Assembly: GCA_016235455.1 (NCBI GenBank)
Contig: JACRKZ010000138.1
Span: forward strand, 1-64,000
DNA: 64,000 nt
Direction of reading: 5' to 3'
Source of the DNA: Armatimonadota bacterium
GTDB lineage: Bacteria > Armatimonadota > UBA10988
This document shows, piece by piece, positions 56,300-64,000 of the stretch (position 1 is its first letter; each line of letters opens with the position of its first letter). A model generated the notes under the pieces. That model was given only the letters and a program-made list of their open reading frames with translations. It searched no databases and had not been told where the DNA came from. The position numbers and the translations under genes are program-made.

Positions 56300-57901
56300 C
56301 TATTCCGGCTTCTTGGCCCCGCGGATGATGCCGTCCACCGGGTCATTGTAGCCTCCACCGTTGTAGTAGCCGCCGCCGTTGTAGTAGCCGCCACCGTTGT
56401 AGCTGTCGGTCGGCCGGTTGTAGTCATACGGCTGATCCGGGTAGTTGGGCCGCGAACCCAGATACAGGTAGCGGTCGCCGCCGATGCTCTCCAGGTCCTC
56501 GCGTTCGATGCGGGTGGTGCCGGAGAAGTACTGGTAGCCCCAGCCGTTCGGCGCGATAGCGTCGATGGCCATGCGCAGGTACTGCGGCGGGTAGTGCAGC
56601 CGCCACACGGCGCGGTTGGGCCGGTTCTCGGTCTCGTAGGTGGCCGGATCGAGGCGGACGATGCGCCAGCCCTCAGGCAGTACGTCGGTGACGTCCACGC
56701 GGCTGATGCCAGTGCGCGGCAGGCTCAGCGTCAGTTCGATGCGCACCGTCTGTCCGGGCATCACCGTGCGCGGCATGCGCCGGGTCATGATCTTGTAGGC
56801 GTCATAGCTCGTGCCGCCGCCGTAGTTGCCGTCACCGTAGCTGTAGGTGCTCTGGCAGAGCGGGGTCAGCCGCGCTTCCAGCGTGCGCCCAGGCCGGATG
56901 GCCGCGGGCACTTCACGAATGGACTGCGAGCCACCGCGAGTGACCACGGAGAAGGAGCGCAACGTGCCGCCTCGGCCACTGCGGTCGTAGATGCGCAGGT
57001 ACCACTCGTGTCGGCCGTCAAGGAACTGCTCCCAGCCGCGCAGGCTGGTTCGGCCGATGCTCTGGCCACGGCGCTCGCCCCAGCTCCGCACGATGTCCAC
57101 GCCCTCGTTGCGGAAGGTGATCGGGATATCGCGCACCATGCCATCGGTGGTGCCCAGGTAAGCGATCACGTCGCTCGGGGACATGTTGTCCAGCACCGCC
57201 TCGGCGTATGGCACCCGCCGGTCGCTGTTGTAGTTGTAGTCGTTGTCATACGGGTCCGGCCGCGGGCAGCCGAGGATGATGTTCCAGTCGATGTCCCAGC
57301 CGTGGTCGGGCCGACCCGGTCCACCGGGGCGGTAGCCGCCGTTGTAGCCAGGGCCACCATAGCCCGGACCGCCATAGCCGGGGCCGCCGTAACCCGGACC
57401 GCCATGGCCAGGGCCGTCAGGTCGGCCGGGGCCACCGTAACCAGGGCCGTCAGGCCGGCCAGGCCCGCCGGGATTGCCGGGGCCGCCGTGGCCGGGACCG
57501 TAGCCAGAGCCGCCGGGTCCACCGCTGCCGGGCCCACCGGGCCGCGGGCCTTCGGGATGGCGGTTGTCCGCCGGCGGGTTTGGTGCCGTGGGCGGGGGAT
57601 CGTTCTTGGGCGGCGCGGGCGGCGGCTGGCGCCGGTCATCGTCGCGCGGGGCTTCGTTCTTTGGCGGCGGCGGTGGTGGCTGCCTGTCGCGCCTGTCGTC
57701 GTCGCGCTTGGTGTCGCTCTTGGGGGGCGGCGGCGGTGGCTGCTTGTCGCGCTTGTCGTCGTCGCGCTTGCTATCGCTCTTGGGCGGTGGGTCCTGGTTG
57801 CCGCGTGACGGCGTGCGACCAGCGCCCCTGTCCTGGGCGTTCGCAACGCTGGCCAAGGCCAGACCGACCGCCAACCATCCTGTCCAGCGTAGCTGCTTCA
57901 T
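56300..57901 (-). CDS. Secreted Pro/Gly-rich repeat protein with P-domain-like and DUF11/Ig-like modules
   Basis: AGGAGAGG RBS before ATG 57901; signal peptide; (KSDxKRDDDxRDxQPPPPPP)x3, GGPGY repeats, WYLRIYD...GTLRSFSV, VTDVLPEGW, (YNGGGY)x3. Confidence 0.75.
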   Translation of the reverse strand: MKQLRWTGWLAVGLALASVANAQDRGAGRTPSRGNQDPPPKSDSKRDDDKRDKQPPPPPPKSDTKRDDDRRDRQPPPPPPKNEAPRDDDRRQPPPAPPKNDPPPTAPNPPADNRHPEGPRPGGPGSGGPGGSGYGPGHGGPGNPGGPGRPDGPGYGGPGRPDGPGHGGPGYGGPGYGGPGYGGPGYNGGYRPGGPGRPDHGWDIDWNIILGCPRPDPYDNDYNYNSDRRVPYAEAVLDNMSPSDVIAYLGTTDGMVRDIPITFRNEGVDIVRSWGERRGQSIGRTSLRGWEQFLDGRHEWYLRIYDRSGRGGTLRSFSVVTRGGSQSIREVPAAIRPGRTLEARLTPLCQSTYSYGDGNYGGGTSYDAYKIMTRRMPRTVMPGQTVRIELTLSLPRTGISRVDVTDVLPEGWRIVRLDPATYETENRPNRAVWRLHYPPQYLRMAIDAIAPNGWGYQYFSGTTRIEREDLESIGGDRYLYLGSRPNYPDQPYDYNRPTDSYNGGGYYNGGGYYNGGGYNDPVDGIIRGAKKPE

Positions 57902-58032
57902 GGTCCTCTCCTTAGCTTTCGCTGATCCCAGGGACGTGCGCGGTCGACCCCACGTCAACGCGGCATGTGACGCAAGTGTGAAGGTGCCGCCGCGACTCCG
58001 CCGAACCCCGTCCCAGGAGTGCCGCCAACCCG

Positions 58033-59982
58033 ATGCAGCCGCCGCAGAGCACGTGCCAGCCCAGCGCCGCGCCGCTCTCCTGGTGGCGGTTCGCCCGCGC
58101 GGTGGTCACCGCCGGGCTGCTGCTGCCGCTCATGGCCTACTGGGCCGCCGACCAGGGCATCGACGTCATCCTCTCGCTCATGGTCCCGCCCATCGGCGCC
58201 ATTCTGCTGCTGGTCATGCTCAACCTGGCGCTGACCCGCGTCGTGCCCAAGCTGGCCTACAGCGTGGAGGAACTGATCCTGGTCTACGGCATGTTGGCCG
58301 TGGGCACCGCCGTGGCCTCGGAGTGGATGGACTGCATCACCAAGCAGGTCACCGGCTACGCGCTGTTCGCCACCGAGGGCAACCGCTTCGCCGAGCTGAT
58401 GAGCCCGCACCTGCCGCGCCTGCTGTTCTTCCGTGAGGATACGCACCTCAAGGACTACCTGGCCGGCGGCGGCGGCTGGGAGAGCCTGCGCGCCAACTGG
58501 CGCCTGTGGGCCCGACCCATCCTCGGCTGGACCTTCCTGACCAGCAGCCTGGCGCTGGCCATGCTCAGCATCAACAGCCTCATGCGCCGGCAATGGACGC
58601 AGCAGGAACGGCTGTCCTTCCCCTGCATCCAGTTCCCCTATGCGCTGGTCGAGGCGTCTGGCCCCAACCGCCCCTCGCTGTGGCGCGATCCGGCGCTGTG
58701 GTACGCCTTCGCGGCCATGGCGGCCATCGACTTCGCCAACGGCCTGTCCTTCCTCTACCCCGGCCTGCCGCGCATCAACGTGCGCTTCCTGGGCGACCTC
58801 AACCTGCTGTTCACCTCGCCGCCCTGGAACGCCACGGGCTGGACCCCGGTCGGCCTGTTCCCCTTCATCGTGGCCATGTCCACCTTCCTACCCACCGACC
58901 TCATGGCCTCGATGGTCGTCTTCTACTGGCTGCGCAAGGCCATGCAGATCGTCGCCTTCCAGATGGGCTACCCCCAAGGCGTGTTCGGCGGCGGCTACCT
59001 GGTGCCCAGCCCACCGTATTTCGGCGAGCAGACCTGGGGCGCATTCCTCGGTCTGTTCCTCACCGCGCTCTGGCTGGCCCGCGACCACCTGCGCGCCGCC
59101 TGGCAGCGCGTTCGCCTGGGCGGCAGCGACGAGGGCGATGTCAAGCCGCGCTGGGCGCTGGCCGGGCTGATAATTGGCTGGGCCGGCTGCGTGTTCGTCG
59201 GCCAGCTCTGCGGCCTGCCGGTCTGGTTCGGCATCCTCTACATCGGGCTGTTCCTGGCCTTCAGCACCGCCCTGACCCGGATGCGCGCCGAACTGGGTCC
59301 GCCGACGCACGAGATGGCCTGGCTGGGGCCCAACCAACTCGTGGTGGACCTGATGGGCACCCAGGGCATGACCCACCGCCGGCTGGTGGGCCTGAGCACC
59401 ACCTTCTACCTGTTCAACCGCATCCACCGCACCCACCCCATGCCGCACCAACTCGAAGGCATGAAGCTGGCCGAACGCGGCGGCGCCGACCAGCGTTGGA
59501 TGGCCGTGGCGCTGCTCCTGGCGGCCATCCTTGGCGCGCTGGCGGCGCATTGCGTGCGTATCTACCTGGGCTACCGCTGGGGCGCCGGTGGCGATGGCTG
59601 GGCTCAGACCAGCGTGGTCAACGACCTGCTCACCAACCCGCGCCGTCCCAACGCCACCGCCCTGGGCTTCGTGGGCGTCGGCGCGGGCACGGTGCTGCTG
59701 CTCAACCTGCTGCGCTTCCGCCTGGCCTGGTGGCCGCTGCATCCGGTGGGCTATGCGCTGGCCATGAACTTCGGCGTCGACTACTACTGGTTCTCACTGC
59801 TGGTGGCCATGGCGCTCAATCTGGCGCGTGCCGACGTATTCCATTTCGATCAATGGGCGGTTGGGGTGGATGCAGTAGAACATCGGCAGATTCCCTTGCG
59901 GACAGTCAGTTGGGATGGTACACTCCGCAGTGTTTTGTATGGCAATCGCAGTATCGGTGCATACCGAGCGGCTGCGACCTGA
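58033..59982 (+). CDS. DUF6785/DUF6784-like polytopic membrane protein whose C-terminus appears replaced by foreign sequence
   Basis: Many TM segments; QW..QERLSFP, RMRAELGPP, WWPLHPVGYA; host-like codon bias ends abruptly near 59820. Confidence 0.7.
   Translation: MQPPQSTCQPSAAPLSWWRFARAVVTAGLLLPLMAYWAADQGIDVILSLMVPPIGAILLLVMLNLALTRVVPKLAYSVEELILVYGMLAVGTAVASEWMDCITKQVTGYALFATEGNRFAELMSPHLPRLLFFREDTHLKDYLAGGGGWESLRANWRLWARPILGWTFLTSSLALAMLSINSLMRRQWTQQERLSFPCIQFPYALVEASGPNRPSLWRDPALWYAFAAMAAIDFANGLSFLYPGLPRINVRFLGDLNLLFTSPPWNATGWTPVGLFPFIVAMSTFLPTDLMASMVVFYWLRKAMQIVAFQMGYPQGVFGGGYLVPSPPYFGEQTWGAFLGLFLTALWLARDHLRAAWQRVRLGGSDEGDVKPRWALAGLIIGWAGCVFVGQLCGLPVWFGILYIGLFLAFSTALTRMRAELGPPTHEMAWLGPNQLVVDLMGTQGMTHRRLVGLSTTFYLFNRIHRTHPMPHQLEGMKLAERGGADQRWMAVALLLAAILGALAAHCVRIYLGYRWGAGGDGWAQTSVVNDLLTNPRRPNATALGFVGVGAGTVLLLNLLRFRLAWWPLHPVGYALAMNFGVDYYWFSLLVAMALNLARADVFHFDQWAVGVDAVEHRQIPLRTVSWDGTLRSVLYGNRSIGAYRAAAT
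59896..59924 (+). promoter_or_regulatory. Sigma70 promoter for the island operon
   Basis: TTGCGG, 17 nt, TACACT preceded by TG-g; about 130 nt before the KAP ATG. Confidence 0.55.
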
Positions 59983-60051
59983 CGTGCTCAGATCGAGGGC
60001 TGTGCTGTGGGGCGGACAGTCTGGGCGGGAGCAGCGCACACAGGAGGGGCG

Positions 60052-61395
60052 ATGAGCAACCACCAAGAGGCGGATCCGGCTGCTGCGACCGGGGGGCAGT
60101 TCGTGATCGAGTTGCGTGACGCGTCTTCGGAGCCGCTCCAGGCAGAGCAGATGCTCGACACGTGGAGCGAGTTCGAGCGGGTGCTGCTTCGCGTCAGGCC
60201 ACCATACAGTATTGCGGTGGACGGCGTATGGGGCAGCGGCAAGACCAAGCTGCTGCGCGGGCTGTTCGCGAGTGCGAGCCAGTCGTGGCCTTGCGTCTGG
60301 TTCAGCGCCTGGGAGTACGCAATCTGCAGCGTACCTATCGTGCCAGCGATGCTCCGCAAGATAAGCGCCGTCCACGCAGCCGCGCTGAATGGGCGTGTTG
60401 CTAGGACTCTTCTATGGGGCGGGGCGGCAACCGCGGCGGATGCAGCGGCGAAATTCATGGGGCTTGGCACACCGCTGAGCGATCTGGTTGCGGCCAAGGC
60501 CAAACTCACCAAGGCCGAGGCAGAGCTACTGAACACGAAGTTCGCGCTGTACAAGGATCCCGTCGAAGCCATCAAGCGGGACTTCTTGTACCTGTCGGGG
60601 CGCATCGCCACCAAGTCCCAGGCCAATCCCGACGGAAGGCCGCTGCTTGTGTTCATGGACGACCTCGATCGTCTTGTACCGGACGAAGCGTTGACCGCCC
60701 TGCAAGGAGTGCGGTCACTTCTTGCGTGCTGGCGAACAGACGAGTTCGCGGCCGACGACGAGCGCAGGATCTACGGCTACGACCTCCCTCCACGTGCTCC
60801 AGTCATCTTCATCTGCGCGGCCGACCTAGGGAGCATCAGGGCAGCCGTCGCCGCTCGGTACAAGGAGGCCACGGCCAGCTTGCCAGAGCTGCCACACTCG
60901 TTTGTCAACAAGCTGTTCGCTCTGCGCTTCTTCGTCCCGGTTCTGCAGCGCGAACCGCTGGCAGCCATGCTTGAGGGGCGGTTCTCTGCCGTCTCGGGAC
61001 AGCGTAGCTCGTGGAACTGGCGTGGACTCCTCGATTGCGTGCCGGACGACCCCCAGTACCAGTACCGCACGCTGCTATACGCTGCCGATCTTGCGTCATT
61101 GATGTATGAGCATCTCTGCTGCGCCGACAGCGACCAGAGACTCCTGTTCTTCGCGGCCCTCATAGCCCAGACGACGCCGCACGACATAGGTATGGTGGCA
61201 GAAGCCGTTCTCCAAAGCAGCGGTGTTGACAGCCCTTTGCGCCGCGAGCTAGACTTGGCCGCAGCCGCGCTGGGCAGCGCAGAGCACACGGCGAATCGCC
61301 AGCGCCTCGCCCAACTACTGCTCCTCACCGCCGCGTGGGCTGTCTCAGGAACTGACTACACTACAAAGGGAAGCCGAGATGGCCGTCAAGGTTGA
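60052..61395 (+). CDS. KAP family P-loop NTPase
   Basis: AGGAGG RBS before ATG 60052; IAVDGVWGSGKT (Walker A), WFSAWEY, LLVFMDDLDRL (Walker B), IFICAAD, FVNKLFALRFFVP. Confidence 0.85.
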   Translation: MSNHQEADPAAATGGQFVIELRDASSEPLQAEQMLDTWSEFERVLLRVRPPYSIAVDGVWGSGKTKLLRGLFASASQSWPCVWFSAWEYAICSVPIVPAMLRKISAVHAAALNGRVARTLLWGGAATAADAAAKFMGLGTPLSDLVAAKAKLTKAEAELLNTKFALYKDPVEAIKRDFLYLSGRIATKSQANPDGRPLLVFMDDLDRLVPDEALTALQGVRSLLACWRTDEFAADDERRIYGYDLPPRAPVIFICAADLGSIRAAVAARYKEATASLPELPHSFVNKLFALRFFVPVLQREPLAAMLEGRFSAVSGQRSSWNWRGLLDCVPDDPQYQYRTLLYAADLASLMYEHLCCADSDQRLLFFAALIAQTTPHDIGMVAEAVLQSSGVDSPLRRELDLAAAALGSAEHTANRQRLAQLLLLTAAWAVSGTDYTTKGSRDGRQG

Positions 61396-62368
61396 GGCAA
61401 CCGAGCAGGTCCGACAACACAAAGCCGTGTGGGTGGCTTGGCCTACCGCGGCCATGGAGTCGACGGAGGCTCCGCCTGAGCCGCTCGGCCCCGTGCGGCC
61501 AGGAGCGCCGATTGGCGAAGCAGACCCCTTTGCCGACCAGCCTGACGAACCGCACCTCGTCTTCCGCGGCCTGCTCCACAACGGTCGTGATGACCTGCCT
61601 AAGGATCTCGCGATCCTGGTCACGCTGCCCCTGCAGGCGGACCTGCAGTCCGAGGGCGAGGCTGGTGCTACGCCGTTGACAGAGCGTGCTGAGGCAGCTG
61701 TCGAGACGCCAAGGACAAAAGGCTGCACTACTCTGGGGCAGAACGCCGACGAGTCCTGGCCGGACTGTGGCGCTGTTCGCCTCTACCTGACAGGCAAGAA
61801 GCACCACAGAGTGGCCTACCGGCTGGTGATGCAATGCCGCGGCTCCAATGCTCTGCGCGACACGTGCCAGTTCCACCGGGCGCTGGGGAGCGAGACCAAC
61901 AGGCACTACAGCGTTCGGTCGTGGAAGGACGAGATCGATGCGGCACCACTGCACCACTGCGAGGTGACCGCCGATGACGGGTGCTCGTTGACCGGGCCGG
62001 AAATGCCGGCAACGATCCAGGCCCTGGCCTCGCAAGTGTGGGAGCACGGCCGCGGTTTGCGTACACCGGACATCGATGCGCAGCGCAGCGCGCGGCACCT
62101 TGAGGACATTGCCGTCGGTCAGGCCAGTCCCGTCGGGTCGTCTCGGTCGGCAGTGGTCGAGGCAGTACTGGTTAGGCCGGTGGAGGCGCTGACCATCGCT
62201 CGAGTGCTCGGCTCTATCGGTGACGATCTCTGCGTTAAGGTGACCGGGAGTTACCTCGGCTCCGAGGCAGGCCAGGCATTGAGGGTCCGAATCGACGATG
62301 AGGCAGCCCGGAGGGAGGACTATCGACGGTCAGGTGGTTCAGGCGCCGAGGATCAGGACAGATCATGA
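61379..62368 (+). CDS. Hypothetical protein (possibly degenerate ACT-like repeats)
   Basis: 329-aa ORF overlapping both neighbours; weak ACT-like segments LYLTGKKHHRV and LTGPEMPATIQALASQVWEHG. Confidence 0.6.
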   Translation: MAVKVEATEQVRQHKAVWVAWPTAAMESTEAPPEPLGPVRPGAPIGEADPFADQPDEPHLVFRGLLHNGRDDLPKDLAILVTLPLQADLQSEGEAGATPLTERAEAAVETPRTKGCTTLGQNADESWPDCGAVRLYLTGKKHHRVAYRLVMQCRGSNALRDTCQFHRALGSETNRHYSVRSWKDEIDAAPLHHCEVTADDGCSLTGPEMPATIQALASQVWEHGRGLRTPDIDAQRSARHLEDIAVGQASPVGSSRSAVVEAVLVRPVEALTIARVLGSIGDDLCVKVTGSYLGSEAGQALRVRIDDEAARREDYRRSGGSGAEDQDRS

Positions 62369-63996
62369 CACCAACGCCCGTTGCGCGACAGCCGCTCGGC
62401 TGGCACAGCTGGCTGGCCGCCCAGTTGGGCGAGCTTGCGCTCGGCCCCCTTGTCGAGCAGGCGGCCACCTACGTCCGACATGTCTTCATCGATCCGCAGA
62501 AGCGCGCGCCAGAGGGCCAGCTGCAAGCCTTCAGAGCCTCCGAACACAAGGGGCATGAGTATCCCGACCTTTGGATGAACAGCATAGTCTACATGTCTCT
62601 ATGGAAGCTGTGCCACGGAGTTGGCGACTACTCGTTCACTGGTGTTCCAGGGATAGACACGCAGACGCAGCAAGACATCAATGAGCTGTGGGCCTATGGC
62701 GTTGGTTGGATGGACGATACGGCGCGCGGCGCGCAGTTCTGTCTTCCTGGCGGCAATGACAGCCCGGATGACTATGGCCAAGCAGGTGTGTCGAACACCT
62801 TCTCCCTCGCAATGTACGTGTTCGTGCGCTCTCACTTCGCGCGCGGCAAGGAGTTCGACCTCGGCACCAACCTTGAGCCAGCATTCGTCAGCCCCGCCGT
62901 GCCGGTCCAAGCCGTGCGGATGTTGCTGCAGACCCGGAGCGGCAATGGCTGGTGGCAGACCCAGGCCCGAGCAGACGGTCGCGGGTGGATGCGCGACGCA
63001 GCTACCGGCGATGAGCGCACAGACAGATACGACGTTCAGGCAACAGCGGTTGCGGTCTCGGCTCTCGGTGACTGGTTGGTCACTATTGGCCAGCATCGCA
63101 GATGGCAGTTCACTCGTTGGCTCACCGAGAAGGGGCTCCTCGCCTCGAATCTGCCACCCATTCACCGAGCTGCCCAGCGGGACTGGCTGCTTCGCACATC
63201 GCGCCACCAGTTCTGGGAGGACGACGACTGGCTCAAGAGGGCGACAGAGCTACGTTGGTCGGAGGCCGACCGAGCCGGCCTGCTGACTGACGAACTCCGA
63301 CAGAAGTGGTATGAGACGGCCGAAGTAGCTGAAGCTGCGGTGGCGCAGAGAAACGGCGTCACGCCCGTCGAGTGGATTGGGCTATGCCAGAGCGTTCGGC
63401 AGGCCCGAGACGATGGCATCGGGCAACTGGTCAGCGCACGCCTGGACCGGGGCGATTGGCCGCGGTGGTTCGACTCAGCCGCCAACGAGTACGGCGGCTA
63501 TGGCGACATCCTCGTCGCCTGTGATGTTCTATACGCACTGGACCGCTTCGGCGGACGGGCCGGCAAGGACGTCAGCAGCCTGGTCGACGATGGCTGCTCG
63601 TACCTCTGGCGCGAGGCAGGCTTGTCCGATCCAGATCGGCTCCCACTATGGCCGTCGGAACACCAGCCGGGCCTCGCCGCCGGGCAACCTGGCGGCGAGG
63701 AGGACAGCCGCCGGGTGGAGGAAGTCGCTCGCGTGTGCGCCGTACTGTTCAGAGCCAGGTACGCCGTCTACTTCCCCGCCCTCCTGCGGGGACTCAGTTG
63801 GCTGCTCCGTACCTCAATCCGCGACGCCGCCCCAGACCCCGACGGCCACGTTGGCCTCAAGCACGTCTGGGCGCTCTATGCCCTCATCGAAATACTACGG
63901 CGGCACGACATCTACCAGCAAGGGTACGAGCAGACGACGGAGCGGATGTTGGCCCCTAGTCGTGACTGGGTGCCCTCAGGCCCACTTGGATGCTGA
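62365..63996 (+). CDS. Prenyltransferase/squalene-cyclase-repeat-like alpha/alpha-toroid protein
   Basis: ATGA overlap with the upstream ORF; QW-like repeats MLLQTRSGNGWW and QLVSARLDRGDW, helices DVQATAVAVSAL and ILVACDVLYAL, also DGCSYL and RGLSWLL. Confidence 0.55.
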   Translation: MTPTPVARQPLGWHSWLAAQLGELALGPLVEQAATYVRHVFIDPQKRAPEGQLQAFRASEHKGHEYPDLWMNSIVYMSLWKLCHGVGDYSFTGVPGIDTQTQQDINELWAYGVGWMDDTARGAQFCLPGGNDSPDDYGQAGVSNTFSLAMYVFVRSHFARGKEFDLGTNLEPAFVSPAVPVQAVRMLLQTRSGNGWWQTQARADGRGWMRDAATGDERTDRYDVQATAVAVSALGDWLVTIGQHRRWQFTRWLTEKGLLASNLPPIHRAAQRDWLLRTSRHQFWEDDDWLKRATELRWSEADRAGLLTDELRQKWYETAEVAEAAVAQRNGVTPVEWIGLCQSVRQARDDGIGQLVSARLDRGDWPRWFDSAANEYGGYGDILVACDVLYALDRFGGRAGKDVSSLVDDGCSYLWREAGLSDPDRLPLWPSEHQPGLAAGQPGGEEDSRRVEEVARVCAVLFRARYAVYFPALLRGLSWLLRTSIRDAAPDPDGHVGLKHVWALYALIEILRRHDIYQQGYEQTTERMLAPSRDWVPSGPLGC

Positions 63997-64000
63997 TGGG

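What the first reader, a model, noticed from the sequence alone, without database searches (positions are those of the whole stretch)
60052..64000. Candidate new defence/conflict system: KAP NTPase + unknown protein + prenyltransferase/cyclase-like toroid + further coupled gene
Seen: three overlapping ORFs (17-nt overlap, then ATGA) in atypical-composition DNA with its own promoter. The last stop overlaps another ATG (TGATG at 63994-98), so the operon probably continues. Established: KAP NTPases such as F-plasmid PifA act in phage exclusion and are common in defence islands. I know of no described system pairing a KAP NTPase with a QW-repeat alpha/alpha-toroid protein. Inference: an NTPase-gated multi-protein system whose effector may modify a lipid, isoprenoid or protein.
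Basis: partly seen in the sequence, partly recalled or inferred. Interest (0 to 1): 0.78.

Follow-up and report, generated by a model that had tools for sequence, protein, structure and literature searches.

The report
KAP ATPase–toroid three-gene cassette
Three tightly packed genes (an ATP-driven switch protein, a fast-changing small cysteine-rich protein and a ring-shaped all-helical protein) recur in the same order in distantly related bacteria and look like a rare, undescribed mobile conflict or anti-virus module, but no function has been tested.

Summary
The three overlapping ORFs are real genes. They are a KAP P-loop NTPase (60052-61395), a 329-aa protein with no known family (61379-62368) and a 543-aa protein (62365-63996). 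AlphaFold2 on a 6-sequence alignment folds the third as an (alpha/alpha)6 toroid, with weak sequence links to the TED/terpene-cyclase group. The same KAP–middle–toroid order occurs in 5 of 5 loci whose context I could see: the window, a Hydrogenedentes MAG and a second genome of its phylum, a Fibrobacteria MAG, and a metagenome element. The cassette is very rare. Exhaustive phmmer over 1.84 billion representatives found 4 toroid relatives. It has foreign composition (GC3 0.74 against 0.84-0.92), and run contigs branch at its left edge. The operon does not continue: the ATG at 63996 opens 22 codons, a -40 kcal/mol hairpin spans the stop, and the next gene is convergent. No PADLOC system fits. 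The toroid lacks DxDD, DDxxD and thioester motifs but keeps an invariant Lys/His/Arg cluster. My best reading (about 0.5) is an undescribed NTPase-gated conflict module. The closest described analogue is the APE system (toroid + ParA + effector), of which it is not a member. Defence function is inferred, not shown.

The parts
59879..60051 (+). Left edge of the cassette and 5' untranslated/regulatory region, with a Shine-Dalgarno AGGAGG at 60042-60047.
   Evidence: The upstream membrane-protein gene really ends at TAG 59876-59878. Run contigs of X1 and X2 branch right after 59878. The sequence is read. No sigma-70 consensus site was found here.
60052..61395 (+). KAP-family P-loop NTPase, 447 aa. 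Walker A is GVWGSGKT at residues 58-65 and Walker B is LLVFMDDLDR at 198-207. There is a C-terminal helical region of about 120 aa with no known domain.
   Evidence: Pfam KAP_NTPase scores 1.1e-13. The nearest PADLOC models are PDC-S20 at 1.6e-10 and PifA at 2e-8, as partial matches. Homologues in the other loci match at BLASTP 1e-27 and hhalign 99.9%. No clear transmembrane segment was found.
61379..62368 (+). Middle protein, 329 aa, with no known family. It is fast-evolving and Cys-rich. Its motifs are W-x-D-C, C-R-x(4-8)-C and (L/V)-R-P-x-E-A-x-x-I-x-R.
   Evidence: No Pfam, NCBIfam, PADLOC or PHROG hit. A gene of 247-329 aa sits in the same position in 5 of 5 loci. The shared motifs appear in the same order in alignment A6. 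The L013 and L015 copies match at BLASTP 5e-10. The window copy matches only over the 16-residue C-terminal motif (hhalign E = 0.046).
62365..63996 (+). (alpha/alpha)6 toroid protein, 543 aa, of a small new family. The invariant polar residues are K81, S156, H157, R394, E509, R512 and R513. It carries a lineage-specific insertion at about residues 242-325.
   Evidence: AF2 on a 6-sequence alignment gives pLDDT 68 and pTM 0.77. All top Foldseek and VIA hits are toroids, with Z up to 25.4. hhalign to bacterial alpha-2-macroglobulin TED regions gives 87% and 78%. The insertion is seen against P0009.
63964..64000 (.). Hairpin that spans the ORF3 stop codon. Its second arm reaches 64017, beyond the window. 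It is probably a bidirectional terminator between convergent genes.
   Evidence: The inverted repeat has 21-nt arms that are 90% complementary. The RNA fold gives -40.2 kcal/mol, z = -3.0. No U-tract follows it.

Best explanation
This is a compact, horizontally mobile three-gene module that acts as one unit. It is most likely a cytoplasmic conflict (anti-phage or anti-mobile-element) system.

The KAP NTPase and the toroid are the constant pair. I infer that the KAP protein is the NTP-driven switch or assembly engine. I infer that the toroid is a binding or sensing module that uses its invariant basic cluster (K81, H157, R394, R512, R513, with S156 and E509) to hold an anionic ligand or a partner protein. 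I infer that the fast-evolving, Cys-motif middle protein is the specificity subunit or the effector released or activated by the pair.

Shown:
- The genes are real.
- The three families travel together in a fixed order.
- The cassette is rare, patchily distributed and compositionally foreign.
- The NTPase motifs are intact.
- The toroid fold is present, and known catalytic motifs are absent.

Inferred:
- Physical association of the three proteins.
- Ligand binding by the basic cluster.
- The roles of the three proteins.
- The defence function itself.
For: Module:
- KAP–middle–toroid lie in the same order and on the same strand in 5 of 5 loci with visible context. These are the window, L012, L013, L015/L014 and L022, from at least three phyla.
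- Genes overlap or are closely spaced.
- The KAP subfamily is specific to the cassette. In 401 genomes of the window's phylum the own copy scores 5.9e-161 and the next best KAP scores 3.7e-20.

Mobility and accessory nature:
- GC3 is 0.74 against 0.84-0.92.
- Cassette GC is below flank GC in 4 of 5 loci.
- Toroid-family hits at E <= 1e-5 were 1 of 401 (own), 1 of 296 (L013's own genome) and 2 of 135 genomes in three phyla.
- Only 4 relatives were found among 1.84 billion representatives.
- In run contigs a minor path leaves the window's sequence directly after the upstream gene's stop codon at 59878. This is seen in 2 of 4 runs of one study.

Conflict flavour:
- The nearest PADLOC models of all four complete KAPs are PDC-S20, PifA and QatA.
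- KAP NTPases fused to unknown regions protected against phages in the experiments of PMC13552941 (passages read).
- L013 has an RmrA-like gene (1.9e-44) plus a PemK/MazF toxin gene next door.
- L014 has an integrase nearby, and L015 a HerA-type fragment.
- The middle protein is the least conserved of the three in 10 of 10 locus pairs.

Analogy:
- The APE system pairs a TED-like toroid with a P-loop NTPase and a variable third gene.

Toroid:
Against: - No experiment exists, and no RNA run was listed.
- No recognisable effector domain (nuclease, TIR, protease, pore) is present in any of the three proteins.
- The window, L012 and L022 have no known defence gene beside the cassette.
- L012 and L013 sit among polysaccharide-synthesis genes (WbqC, DegT, GT4, GT1), so an envelope-related role stays open.
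- The PADLOC matches of the KAP are domain-level only. QatA in NCBIfam scores 27 bits against a cut-off of 600.
- The structural model is of middling confidence (pLDDT 68).
- The best structural Z-scores go to GH76 glycosidases (25.4), not to TED or SHC (19.9-22.2). The superfamily call therefore rests on weak sequence signals.
- I inferred the position of the invariant residues on one face from helix order, because I could not inspect coordinates.
- Homology of the window's middle protein to the others rests on short motifs (hhalign E = 0.046).
- Only 5 loci are known, and L014/L015 are probably one element seen twice.
Confidence: 0.5

Rival explanations
1. The toroid is a true enzyme (terpene cyclase or prenyltransferase-like, or a glycan-active GH76/GH88/epimerase-like enzyme). 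It would work on an envelope lipid or polysaccharide, and the KAP NTPase and middle protein would be its regulators. On this reading the module is a niche metabolic or envelope cassette, not an immune system.
For: - The best structural matches are GH76 mannanases (Z 25.4 over 326 residues), GH88/GH105 enzymes and epimerases.
- SHC, OSC and diterpene synthases also match (Z 20-22).
- L012 and L013 lie among glycosyltransferase, aminotransferase and WbqC genes.
- The invariant basic pocket could bind a diphosphate or a sugar phosphate.
Against: - 0 of 7 members has DxDD, DDxxD or a conserved Asp pair.
- Sequence identity to GH76 is 6-8%.
- No Pfam enzyme family matches any of 6 members, even at E <= 10.
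- None of the three proteins has a signal peptide or a clear transmembrane segment (N-termini read).
- The flanks differ in all 5 loci, so the polysaccharide context is not conserved.
Confidence: 0.15
2. The cassette is a selfish addiction or toxin-antitoxin-like module. The middle protein would be a toxin held in check by the KAP-toroid pair, and the module would persist by post-segregational killing rather than by defending the host.
For: - The cassette is small, mobile and compositionally foreign, with a patchy distribution.
- The genes are translationally coupled.
- One component evolves fast.
- In L013 it lies next to another toxin-antitoxin-type pair.
Against: - Three large proteins totalling 1,319 aa are unusually costly for a plain addiction module.
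- None of the three resembles a known toxin or antitoxin family.
- The boundary with abortive-infection defence is blurred, so this reading partly overlaps the best explanation.
Confidence: 0.15
3. It is a derived member of the APE (alpha-alpha toroid–ParA–effector) systems. ParA would have been lost or replaced, and the KAP-related NTPase that APE uses as an effector would have been retained.
For: - APE is a three-gene system with a TED-like toroid that lacks the thioester cysteine.
- The family here has an invariant Ser156.
Against: - 0 of 5 middle proteins has a P-loop.
- No ParA was found among the flanking genes scanned.
- The third gene is one family, not a set of different effector domains.
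- I could not obtain APE sequences to compare (bioRxiv supplements are closed).
Confidence: 0.1

Closest known systems
APE system (Alpha-Alpha toroid–ParA–Effector), bioRxiv 10.64898/2026.10.19.760177 (section 21 read)
   Same: It is a three-gene neighbourhood spread over distant phyla. A cytoplasmic alpha/alpha-toroid related to the complement TED, without the thioester Cys, is paired with a P-loop NTPase and a variable third gene. The authors propose the toroid as sensor.
   Different: The core NTPase here is KAP, not ParA. The toroid here has no long charged C-terminal helix. The third gene is a single fast-evolving Cys-motif family, not a set of HD, caspase or TIR effectors. The gene order is KAP–middle–toroid. 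The sequence relationship to APE toroids was not testable here.
KAP P-loop NTPase defence proteins: EF_KAP and relatives (PMC13552941, passages read), F-plasmid PifA, PADLOC candidate PDC-S20
   Same: They have a KAP NTPase domain with intact Walker motifs. The NTPase works with a linked module of unknown fold. In EF_KAP a Walker B mutation and deletion of the unknown region both abolish defence. PDC-S20 models have a similar length (450-464 positions).
   Different: Those are single proteins, with the unknown region fused and often with transmembrane helices. Here the KAP is soluble by hydropathy, and the partners are two separate genes. Matches to the PifA and PDC-S20 models are partial (31-39 bits for the window's KAP).
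QatABCD (QatA = KAP NTPase; PMC13279940, passages read)
   Same: It is a multi-gene system in which a KAP NTPase accompanies proteins of other function. QatA oligomerises and is accessory to a core pair.
   Different: There is no QueC-like QatC, QatB or TatD QatD here (no PADLOC hits for ORF2 or ORF3). QatA in NCBIfam scores 27 bits against a cut-off of 600.
Thioester domain (TED) of bacterial alpha-2-macroglobulins and complement C3/C4; squalene-hopene and oxidosqualene cyclases
   Same: They share the (alpha/alpha)6 toroid and the repeat unit 'L..Q.pdG.W ... D..AT...lyaL'. hhalign gives 87% and 78% over 72-73 columns. The OSC QW repeats match at E = 0.024. VIA gives Z 19.9-22.2 at 14-16% identity.
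   Different: There is no thioester CGEQ and no DxDD. No Pfam model matches. The protein stands alone and is cytoplasmic. A different set of invariant residues is conserved.

Membership tests
KAP family P-loop NTPases (Pfam PF07693) | Match to the family HMM above its gathering score | tested here: met
   The window's KAP scores 51.6 bits against a cut-off of 20, E = 1.1e-13, over residues 49-323. The KAPs of L012, L013 and L015 score 35, 41.4 and 30.2 bits.
KAP family P-loop NTPases (Pfam PF07693) | Intact Walker A (GxxxxGKT) and Walker B (hhhhDD) | tested here: met
   GVWGSGKT lies at residue 58 and LLVFMDDLDR at 198. Both motifs are present in 4 of 4 complete KAPs of the cassette.
KAP family P-loop NTPases (Pfam PF07693) | Transmembrane helices inserted within the NTPase domain. 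This is typical of many prokaryotic members but is not obligatory. The feature is recalled from the original family description and comes from no call. | tested here: not met
   The best 19-residue Kyte-Doolittle windows score 1.23-1.75. In the window's protein the best window lies in the P-loop core, not in the insert. This is a crude test.
Named KAP defence systems (QatABCD, PifA, PDC-S20) | Full-length match to the system's model, and presence of the partner genes | tested here: not met
   QatA in NCBIfam scores 27.3 bits against a cut-off of 600. In PADLOC, PDC-S20 scores 39 bits over residues 42-217 and PifA scores 31 bits. ORF2 and ORF3 hit no PADLOC model.
Terpenoid cyclase / protein prenyltransferase / TED toroid superfamily | (alpha/alpha)6 toroid fold | tested here: met
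   The AF2 model has pTM 0.77. All listed Foldseek hits are toroids, with C4d best at E = 2.9e-3. VIA gives Z 25.4 to 16.8 over about 260-340 aligned residues, spanning model residues 22-523.
Terpenoid cyclase / protein prenyltransferase / TED toroid superfamily | Sequence membership (Pfam SQHop_cyclase_N/C, Prenyltrans, TED_complement) | tested here: not met
   0 of 6 members match any of these families at E <= 10.
Terpenoid cyclase / protein prenyltransferase / TED toroid superfamily | QW-type repeat unit shared with the superfamily | tested here: inconclusive
   hhalign to two bacterial A2M TED regions gives 87% and 78% over 72-73 columns. The profile against PDB matches the OSC repeats at E = 0.024. 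The nearest ESM Atlas clusters are SQHop_cyclase/TED at 0.92, with 174 shared features. Each signal is weak, and they cover only one or two repeat units.
Terpenoid cyclase / protein prenyltransferase / TED toroid superfamily | Catalytic motifs: class II DxDD, class I DDxxD, thioester C-x-E-Q | tested here: not met
   0 of 7 members has any of these motifs.
GH76 and other (alpha/alpha)6 glycoside hydrolases | Conserved catalytic acid pair. The adjacent Asp-Asp of GH76 is recalled, and is supported by the D125N and D136A/D137A variants named in the entry titles. | tested here: not met
   No DD is conserved across the 7 sequences. The only columns at least 6 of 7 acidic are 98, 236, 381, 393, 509 and 526, and none are adjacent. 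Identity is 6-8%.
APE system | ParA (ConB2) NTPase as the constant partner | tested here: not met
   The NTPase is KAP. 0 of 5 middle proteins has a P-loop. No ParA-type Pfam hit was found among the flanking genes scanned.
APE system | [quoted passage not shown] | tested here: inconclusive
   The toroid is present. However, 6 of 7 members end about 12-13 residues after the invariant RR, and the window's copy ends 30 residues after it. I had no APE sequences to compare.

The most novel reading that the evidence does not exclude
This would be a new class of NTPase-gated prokaryotic immune system. A complement-TED-like or terpene-cyclase-like toroid, stripped of the known catalytic motifs, would serve as the invader- or ligand-sensing element through an invariant Lys/His/Arg pocket. 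Alternatively it could be a covalent tagging element using the invariant Ser156-His157. It would be driven by a dedicated soluble KAP NTPase and coupled to a rapidly diversifying Cys-motif protein. This would be an evolutionary parallel, independent of ParA-based APE systems, to the use of TED toroids in animal complement.
Probability: 0.25. Interest if true: 0.8.

Novelty: new variant of a known kind. Interest (0 to 1): 0.6.

Why it matters
If it is a defence system, it adds a third, independent case of an alpha/alpha-toroid recruited to immunity, after complement/alpha-2-macroglobulin TEDs and the APE systems. It would also show how a KAP NTPase works with separate partner proteins rather than with fused unknown regions.

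The module is small (about 4 kb) and self-contained, and its three proteins appear soluble. The NTPase motifs and the seven invariant polar residues of the toroid give clear mutational targets, so the module is directly testable in a laboratory host.

Two of the three proteins define families with no Pfam, NCBIfam, PHROG or PADLOC model.

Tried and rejected
- **Word-seeded homologue searches.** All three proteins found only themselves.
- **Single-sequence AF2 of ORF3.** It failed, with pLDDT 36.
- **Viral collections and plasmids.**
  - IMG/VR: 29 pattern stretches, 0 confirmed.
  - BFVD fold search: nothing at E <= 0.001.
  - PLSDB tblastn with P0005: no match.
- **ESM Atlas for ORF2.** No usable hit.
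- **PDB profile searches.** The middle-protein profile gave one weak row at E = 0.12. The KAP profile gave only generic AAA/NLR rows at E >= 0.039.
- **Complex prediction (KAP + toroid).** It was never run.
- **RNA evidence.** No RNA holder was listed.
- **Insertion into the upstream gene (withdrawn).** I first read the upstream membrane-protein gene as truncated by the insertion. I withdrew that reading for three reasons:
  - The last 26 codons, ending at TAG 59876-59878, are still present in another frame.
  - Contigs of two runs carry about 115 extra letters at 59819.
  - The apparent truncation is therefore a 115-nt gap or variant of this assembly, and the cassette begins after the gene's stop.
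- **Direct repeats flanking the cassette.** None were convincing.
- **tRNA genes.** None in the window.
- **Earlier findings of this scan.** Nothing by sequence or place.
- **Literature searches.**
  - No paper held all the terms for 'terpene cyclase' + 'anti-phage' + 'defense system'.
  - None held 'prenyltransferase' + 'KAP NTPase'.
  - None held 'thioester domain' + 'anti-phage'.
  - None held 'PDC-S20'.
  - 'alpha-alpha toroid' + 'immunity' + 'NTPase' gave only the APE preprint.
  - The preprint's supplements are closed, so a listing of this architecture there cannot be excluded.

Full report
**Observation**

The window is G000:C113:1-64000, and the contig ends at 64828. Three same-strand ORFs lie at 60052-61395 (447 aa), 61379-62368 (329 aa) and 62365-63996 (543 aa).

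All three show the codon-position GC pattern of real genes in those frames. Their GC3 is 0.74, against 0.92, 0.84 and 0.90 for the three upstream host genes. An AGGAGG sits 4 nt before the ATG at 60052.

The sigma-70 consensus scan finds no promoter upstream of 60052. Its single hit (TTGACA-18-TAGACT) lies at 61226-61255 inside the KAP gene, and 0.7 hits are expected by chance.

The operon does not go on:
- The ATG at 63996 opens only 22 codons.
- A hairpin with 21-nt arms (63964-63984 / 63997-64017; -40.2 kcal/mol, z = -3.0) spans the stop codon.
- The next gene is convergent. It is a GNAT-like ORF whose frame breaks after about 95 codons.

**The three proteins**

*ORF1.* It is a KAP-family P-loop NTPase: Pfam PF07693, 51.6 bits against a cut-off of 20. 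Walker A is GVWGSGKT and Walker B is LLVFMDDLDR. Its nearest PADLOC models are PDC-S20 (1.6e-10), PifA (2e-8) and QatA, all partial matches. QatA in NCBIfam scores 27 bits against a cut-off of 600. Hydropathy shows no clear membrane segment.

*ORF2.* It hits nothing in Pfam, NCBIfam, PADLOC or PHROGs. The ESM Atlas gave no usable hit.

*ORF3.* It hits no Pfam family. The evidence for its fold and kinship is as follows:
- Single-sequence AF2 failed, with pLDDT 36.
- On an alignment of six family members the model reached pLDDT 68 and pTM 0.77.
- All top Foldseek rows are (alpha/alpha)6 toroids. The best is the C4d thioester domain at E = 2.9e-3.
- VIA-align over 48,161 chains gives these matches, all spanning model residues about 22-523:

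| Match | Z | Aligned residues | Identity |
|---|---|---|---|
| GH76 | 25.4 | 326 | 8% |
| Squalene-hopene cyclase 8paj | 22.2 | 286 | 16% |
| Oxidosqualene cyclase | 21.1 | 304 | 14% |
| C4d | 19.9 | 281 | 16% |

- The fold class is firm. The choice among toroid superfamilies is not settled by Z.
- Three weak sequence signals point to the TED/terpene-cyclase group:
  - The nearest ESM Atlas clusters are SQHop_cyclase/TED at 0.92.
  - The family profile matches the QW repeats of lanosterol synthase at E = 0.024.
  - In 401 genomes of the window's phylum, the only hits besides the own gene are the TED regions of two bacterial alpha-2-macroglobulins (2e-4 and 3e-4). hhalign rates these at 87% and 78% over 72-73 columns.
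- These signals cover one or two repeat units only.
- 0 of 7 family members has DxDD, DDxxD or a C-x-E-Q thioester motif, and none has a conserved adjacent acid pair.
- The invariant polar residues are K81, S156, H157, R394, E509, R512 and R513.
- They lie at the C-terminal ends of predicted helices 68-83, 145-159, 382-395 and 498-512. From the repeat pattern I take these to be inner helices.
- In this fold the inner helices run parallel (established knowledge of the fold, recalled). These residues should therefore cluster on one face. I could not inspect coordinates, so this is an inference.

**Relatives and gene order**

Word-seeded searches found only the query for each of the three proteins.

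Exhaustive phmmer of ORF3 against 1.84 billion representatives found four relatives, at 1e-31 to 9e-5. A cluster mate of the best one, P0009 (444 aa), is 34-37% identical in two blocks. It lacks residues about 242-325 of the window's protein, which is a lineage-specific insertion.

Pattern scans gave two loci in genome contigs, from 7 pattern stretches:
- a Hydrogenedentes MAG (L012)
- a Fibrobacteria MAG (L013)

Scans of metagenome contigs gave two loci from 32 stretches. These are L014 and L015. Their ORF lengths are identical, so they are probably one element seen twice; I did not verify this.

A profile search of the L012 phylum found one more locus, G700 (L022; 2 of 135 genomes). The L013 phylum gave only L013's own genome (1 of 296). 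The window's relatives gave none (1 of 61, own only).

In all 5 loci whose surroundings I could read, the order is the same: a KAP NTPase of 417-447 aa, then a protein of 247-329 aa, then the toroid of 433-543 aa, all on one strand. The L022 KAP is cut by its contig end. The context of P0005 and P0009 could not be seen.

The KAPs are specifically related:
- BLASTP 1e-27 between the window's KAP and L012's.
- hhalign 99.9% for the L022 KAP.
- In the window's phylum the next-best KAP scores only 3.7e-20, against 5.9e-161 for the own copy.

The middle proteins are barely alignable:
- L013 against L015 gives 5e-10.
- The window's copy matches only over a 16-residue motif (hhalign E = 0.046).
- All five share, in the same order, W-x-D-C, C-R-x(4-8)-C and (L/V)-R-P-x-E-A-x-x-I-x-R.
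- They have 7-10 cysteines each and no P-loop.

In pairwise local alignments the middle protein scores lowest in 10 of 10 locus pairs. The KAP scores highest in 9 of 10; the exception involves the truncated L022 KAP.

**Mobility**

Cassette GC is below flank GC in 4 of 5 loci (0.642 against 0.689 in the window).

I first thought the cassette had truncated the upstream membrane-protein gene. That was wrong, for these reasons:
- The last 26 codons of that gene, ending at TAG 59876-59878, are present in another frame.
- Contigs of two runs carry about 115 extra letters at 59819.
- The break is therefore a gap or variant of this assembly.

The cassette starts right after the stop codon. At exactly that point (after 59878) a minor contig path leaves the window's sequence in 2 of 4 runs of one study:

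| Run | Minor-path depth | Cassette-path depth |
|---|---|---|
| X1 | 6.8 | 28.3 |
| X2 | 5.5 | 7.3 |

X1 may be the source sample. The shared 30-mer is unique in this genome. This hints at presence/absence or replacement polymorphism, no more.

**Neighbours**

- L013 has an RmrA-like gene (PADLOC 1.9e-44) followed by a PemK/MazF toxin gene.
- L014 has a tyrosine integrase, and L015 a HerA-type fragment.
- L012 and L013 also carry polysaccharide-synthesis genes.
- L022 and the window have no defence-type neighbours.

**What it most likely is**

It is a self-contained, mobile, cytoplasmic three-protein module. I put about 0.9 on 'one functional unit' and about 0.5 on 'conflict/defence system'.

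Within that reading I infer these roles:
- The KAP NTPase is the switch.
- The toroid is a binding or sensing module that uses its basic pocket.
- The fast-evolving Cys-motif protein is the specificity or effector subunit.

This follows from three points:
- KAP NTPases are shown to control linked unknown modules in phage defence (PMC13552941, passages read).
- QatA is an oligomeric accessory KAP (PMC13279940, passages read).
- The APE proposal pairs a TED-like toroid sensor with a P-loop NTPase and a variable third gene (bioRxiv 10.64898/2026.10.19.760177, section 21 read).

It is not an APE member. There is no ParA, no long C-terminal helix, and the third gene is a single family.

The rivals are an enzymatic or envelope role (0.15), a plain addiction module (0.15) and a ParA-less APE derivative (0.1).

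**Novelty**

No PADLOC model fits ORF2 or ORF3. No paper in the searched library pairs a KAP NTPase core with a toroid. The APE preprint's closed supplements could bear on this. I rate the cassette a new variant of a known kind (NTPase-centred candidate immune modules), with two new protein families. Earlier notes of this scan describe other KAP NTPases coupled to repeat-type sensor partners. They are unchecked leads, and I did not test them.

Noticed in passing
window 59767-59878: The upstream membrane-protein gene (58033-) looks truncated or frameshifted in this assembly. Its last 26 codons (…IWRVPTYSISINGRLGWMQ*) lie in another frame and end at TAG 59876-59878. Contigs of runs X1 and X2 hold about 115 extra letters at 59819 that would restore the frame. 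This is an assembly gap or a population variant.
   Followed up: partly
window 59849-59878 and beyond: The assembly graph branches here. Minor contigs in runs X1 and X2 share this 30-mer, which is unique in G000. They then diverge from the window directly after the stop codon at 59878, at the cassette's left edge. The main X1 contig runs about 9.1 kb past 64000, further than the MAG contig.
   Followed up: partly
window 58033-59982 and paralogues: The roughly 650-aa polytopic membrane protein belongs to a large expanded family. It has 16 matches in G000 and 8-36 in each of the five other genomes of the family. It has no Pfam or NCBIfam name.
   Followed up: no
window 56300-57958 (-): This 552-aa ORF is extremely Pro/Gly/Asp-rich and repetitive (…DDKRDKQPPPPPPK… and GPGYGGPG repeats), with a folded C-terminal part.
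   Followed up: no
L003 4977-5519 (-) = contig 63975-64517: The convergent downstream GNAT-like gene changes reading frame after about 95 codons. The C-terminal GNAT-like part continues in another frame. This is a frameshift, a pseudogene or an assembly error.
   Followed up: partly
window 61226-61255: The only sigma-70-like consensus match in the region (TTGACA-18-TAGACT, 10 of 12) lies inside the KAP gene, about 125 nt before the ORF2 start. It could be an internal promoter or a chance match, since 0.7 hits are expected.
   Followed up: no
L013 10162-11725: Next to the Fibrobacteria copy of the cassette lies an RmrA-like HTH-peptidase M78 gene (PADLOC 1.9e-44). A PemK/MazF-type toxin gene overlaps and follows it. 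This is a Rosmer-like or toxin-antitoxin pair.
   Followed up: partly
L017 (G009:C121) and L018 (G237:C15): Two very large bacterial alpha-2-macroglobulin genes (open frames of 2904 and 1594 aa) are present in the window's phylum. Their TED regions are the nearest sequence matches to the toroid profile.
   Followed up: partly
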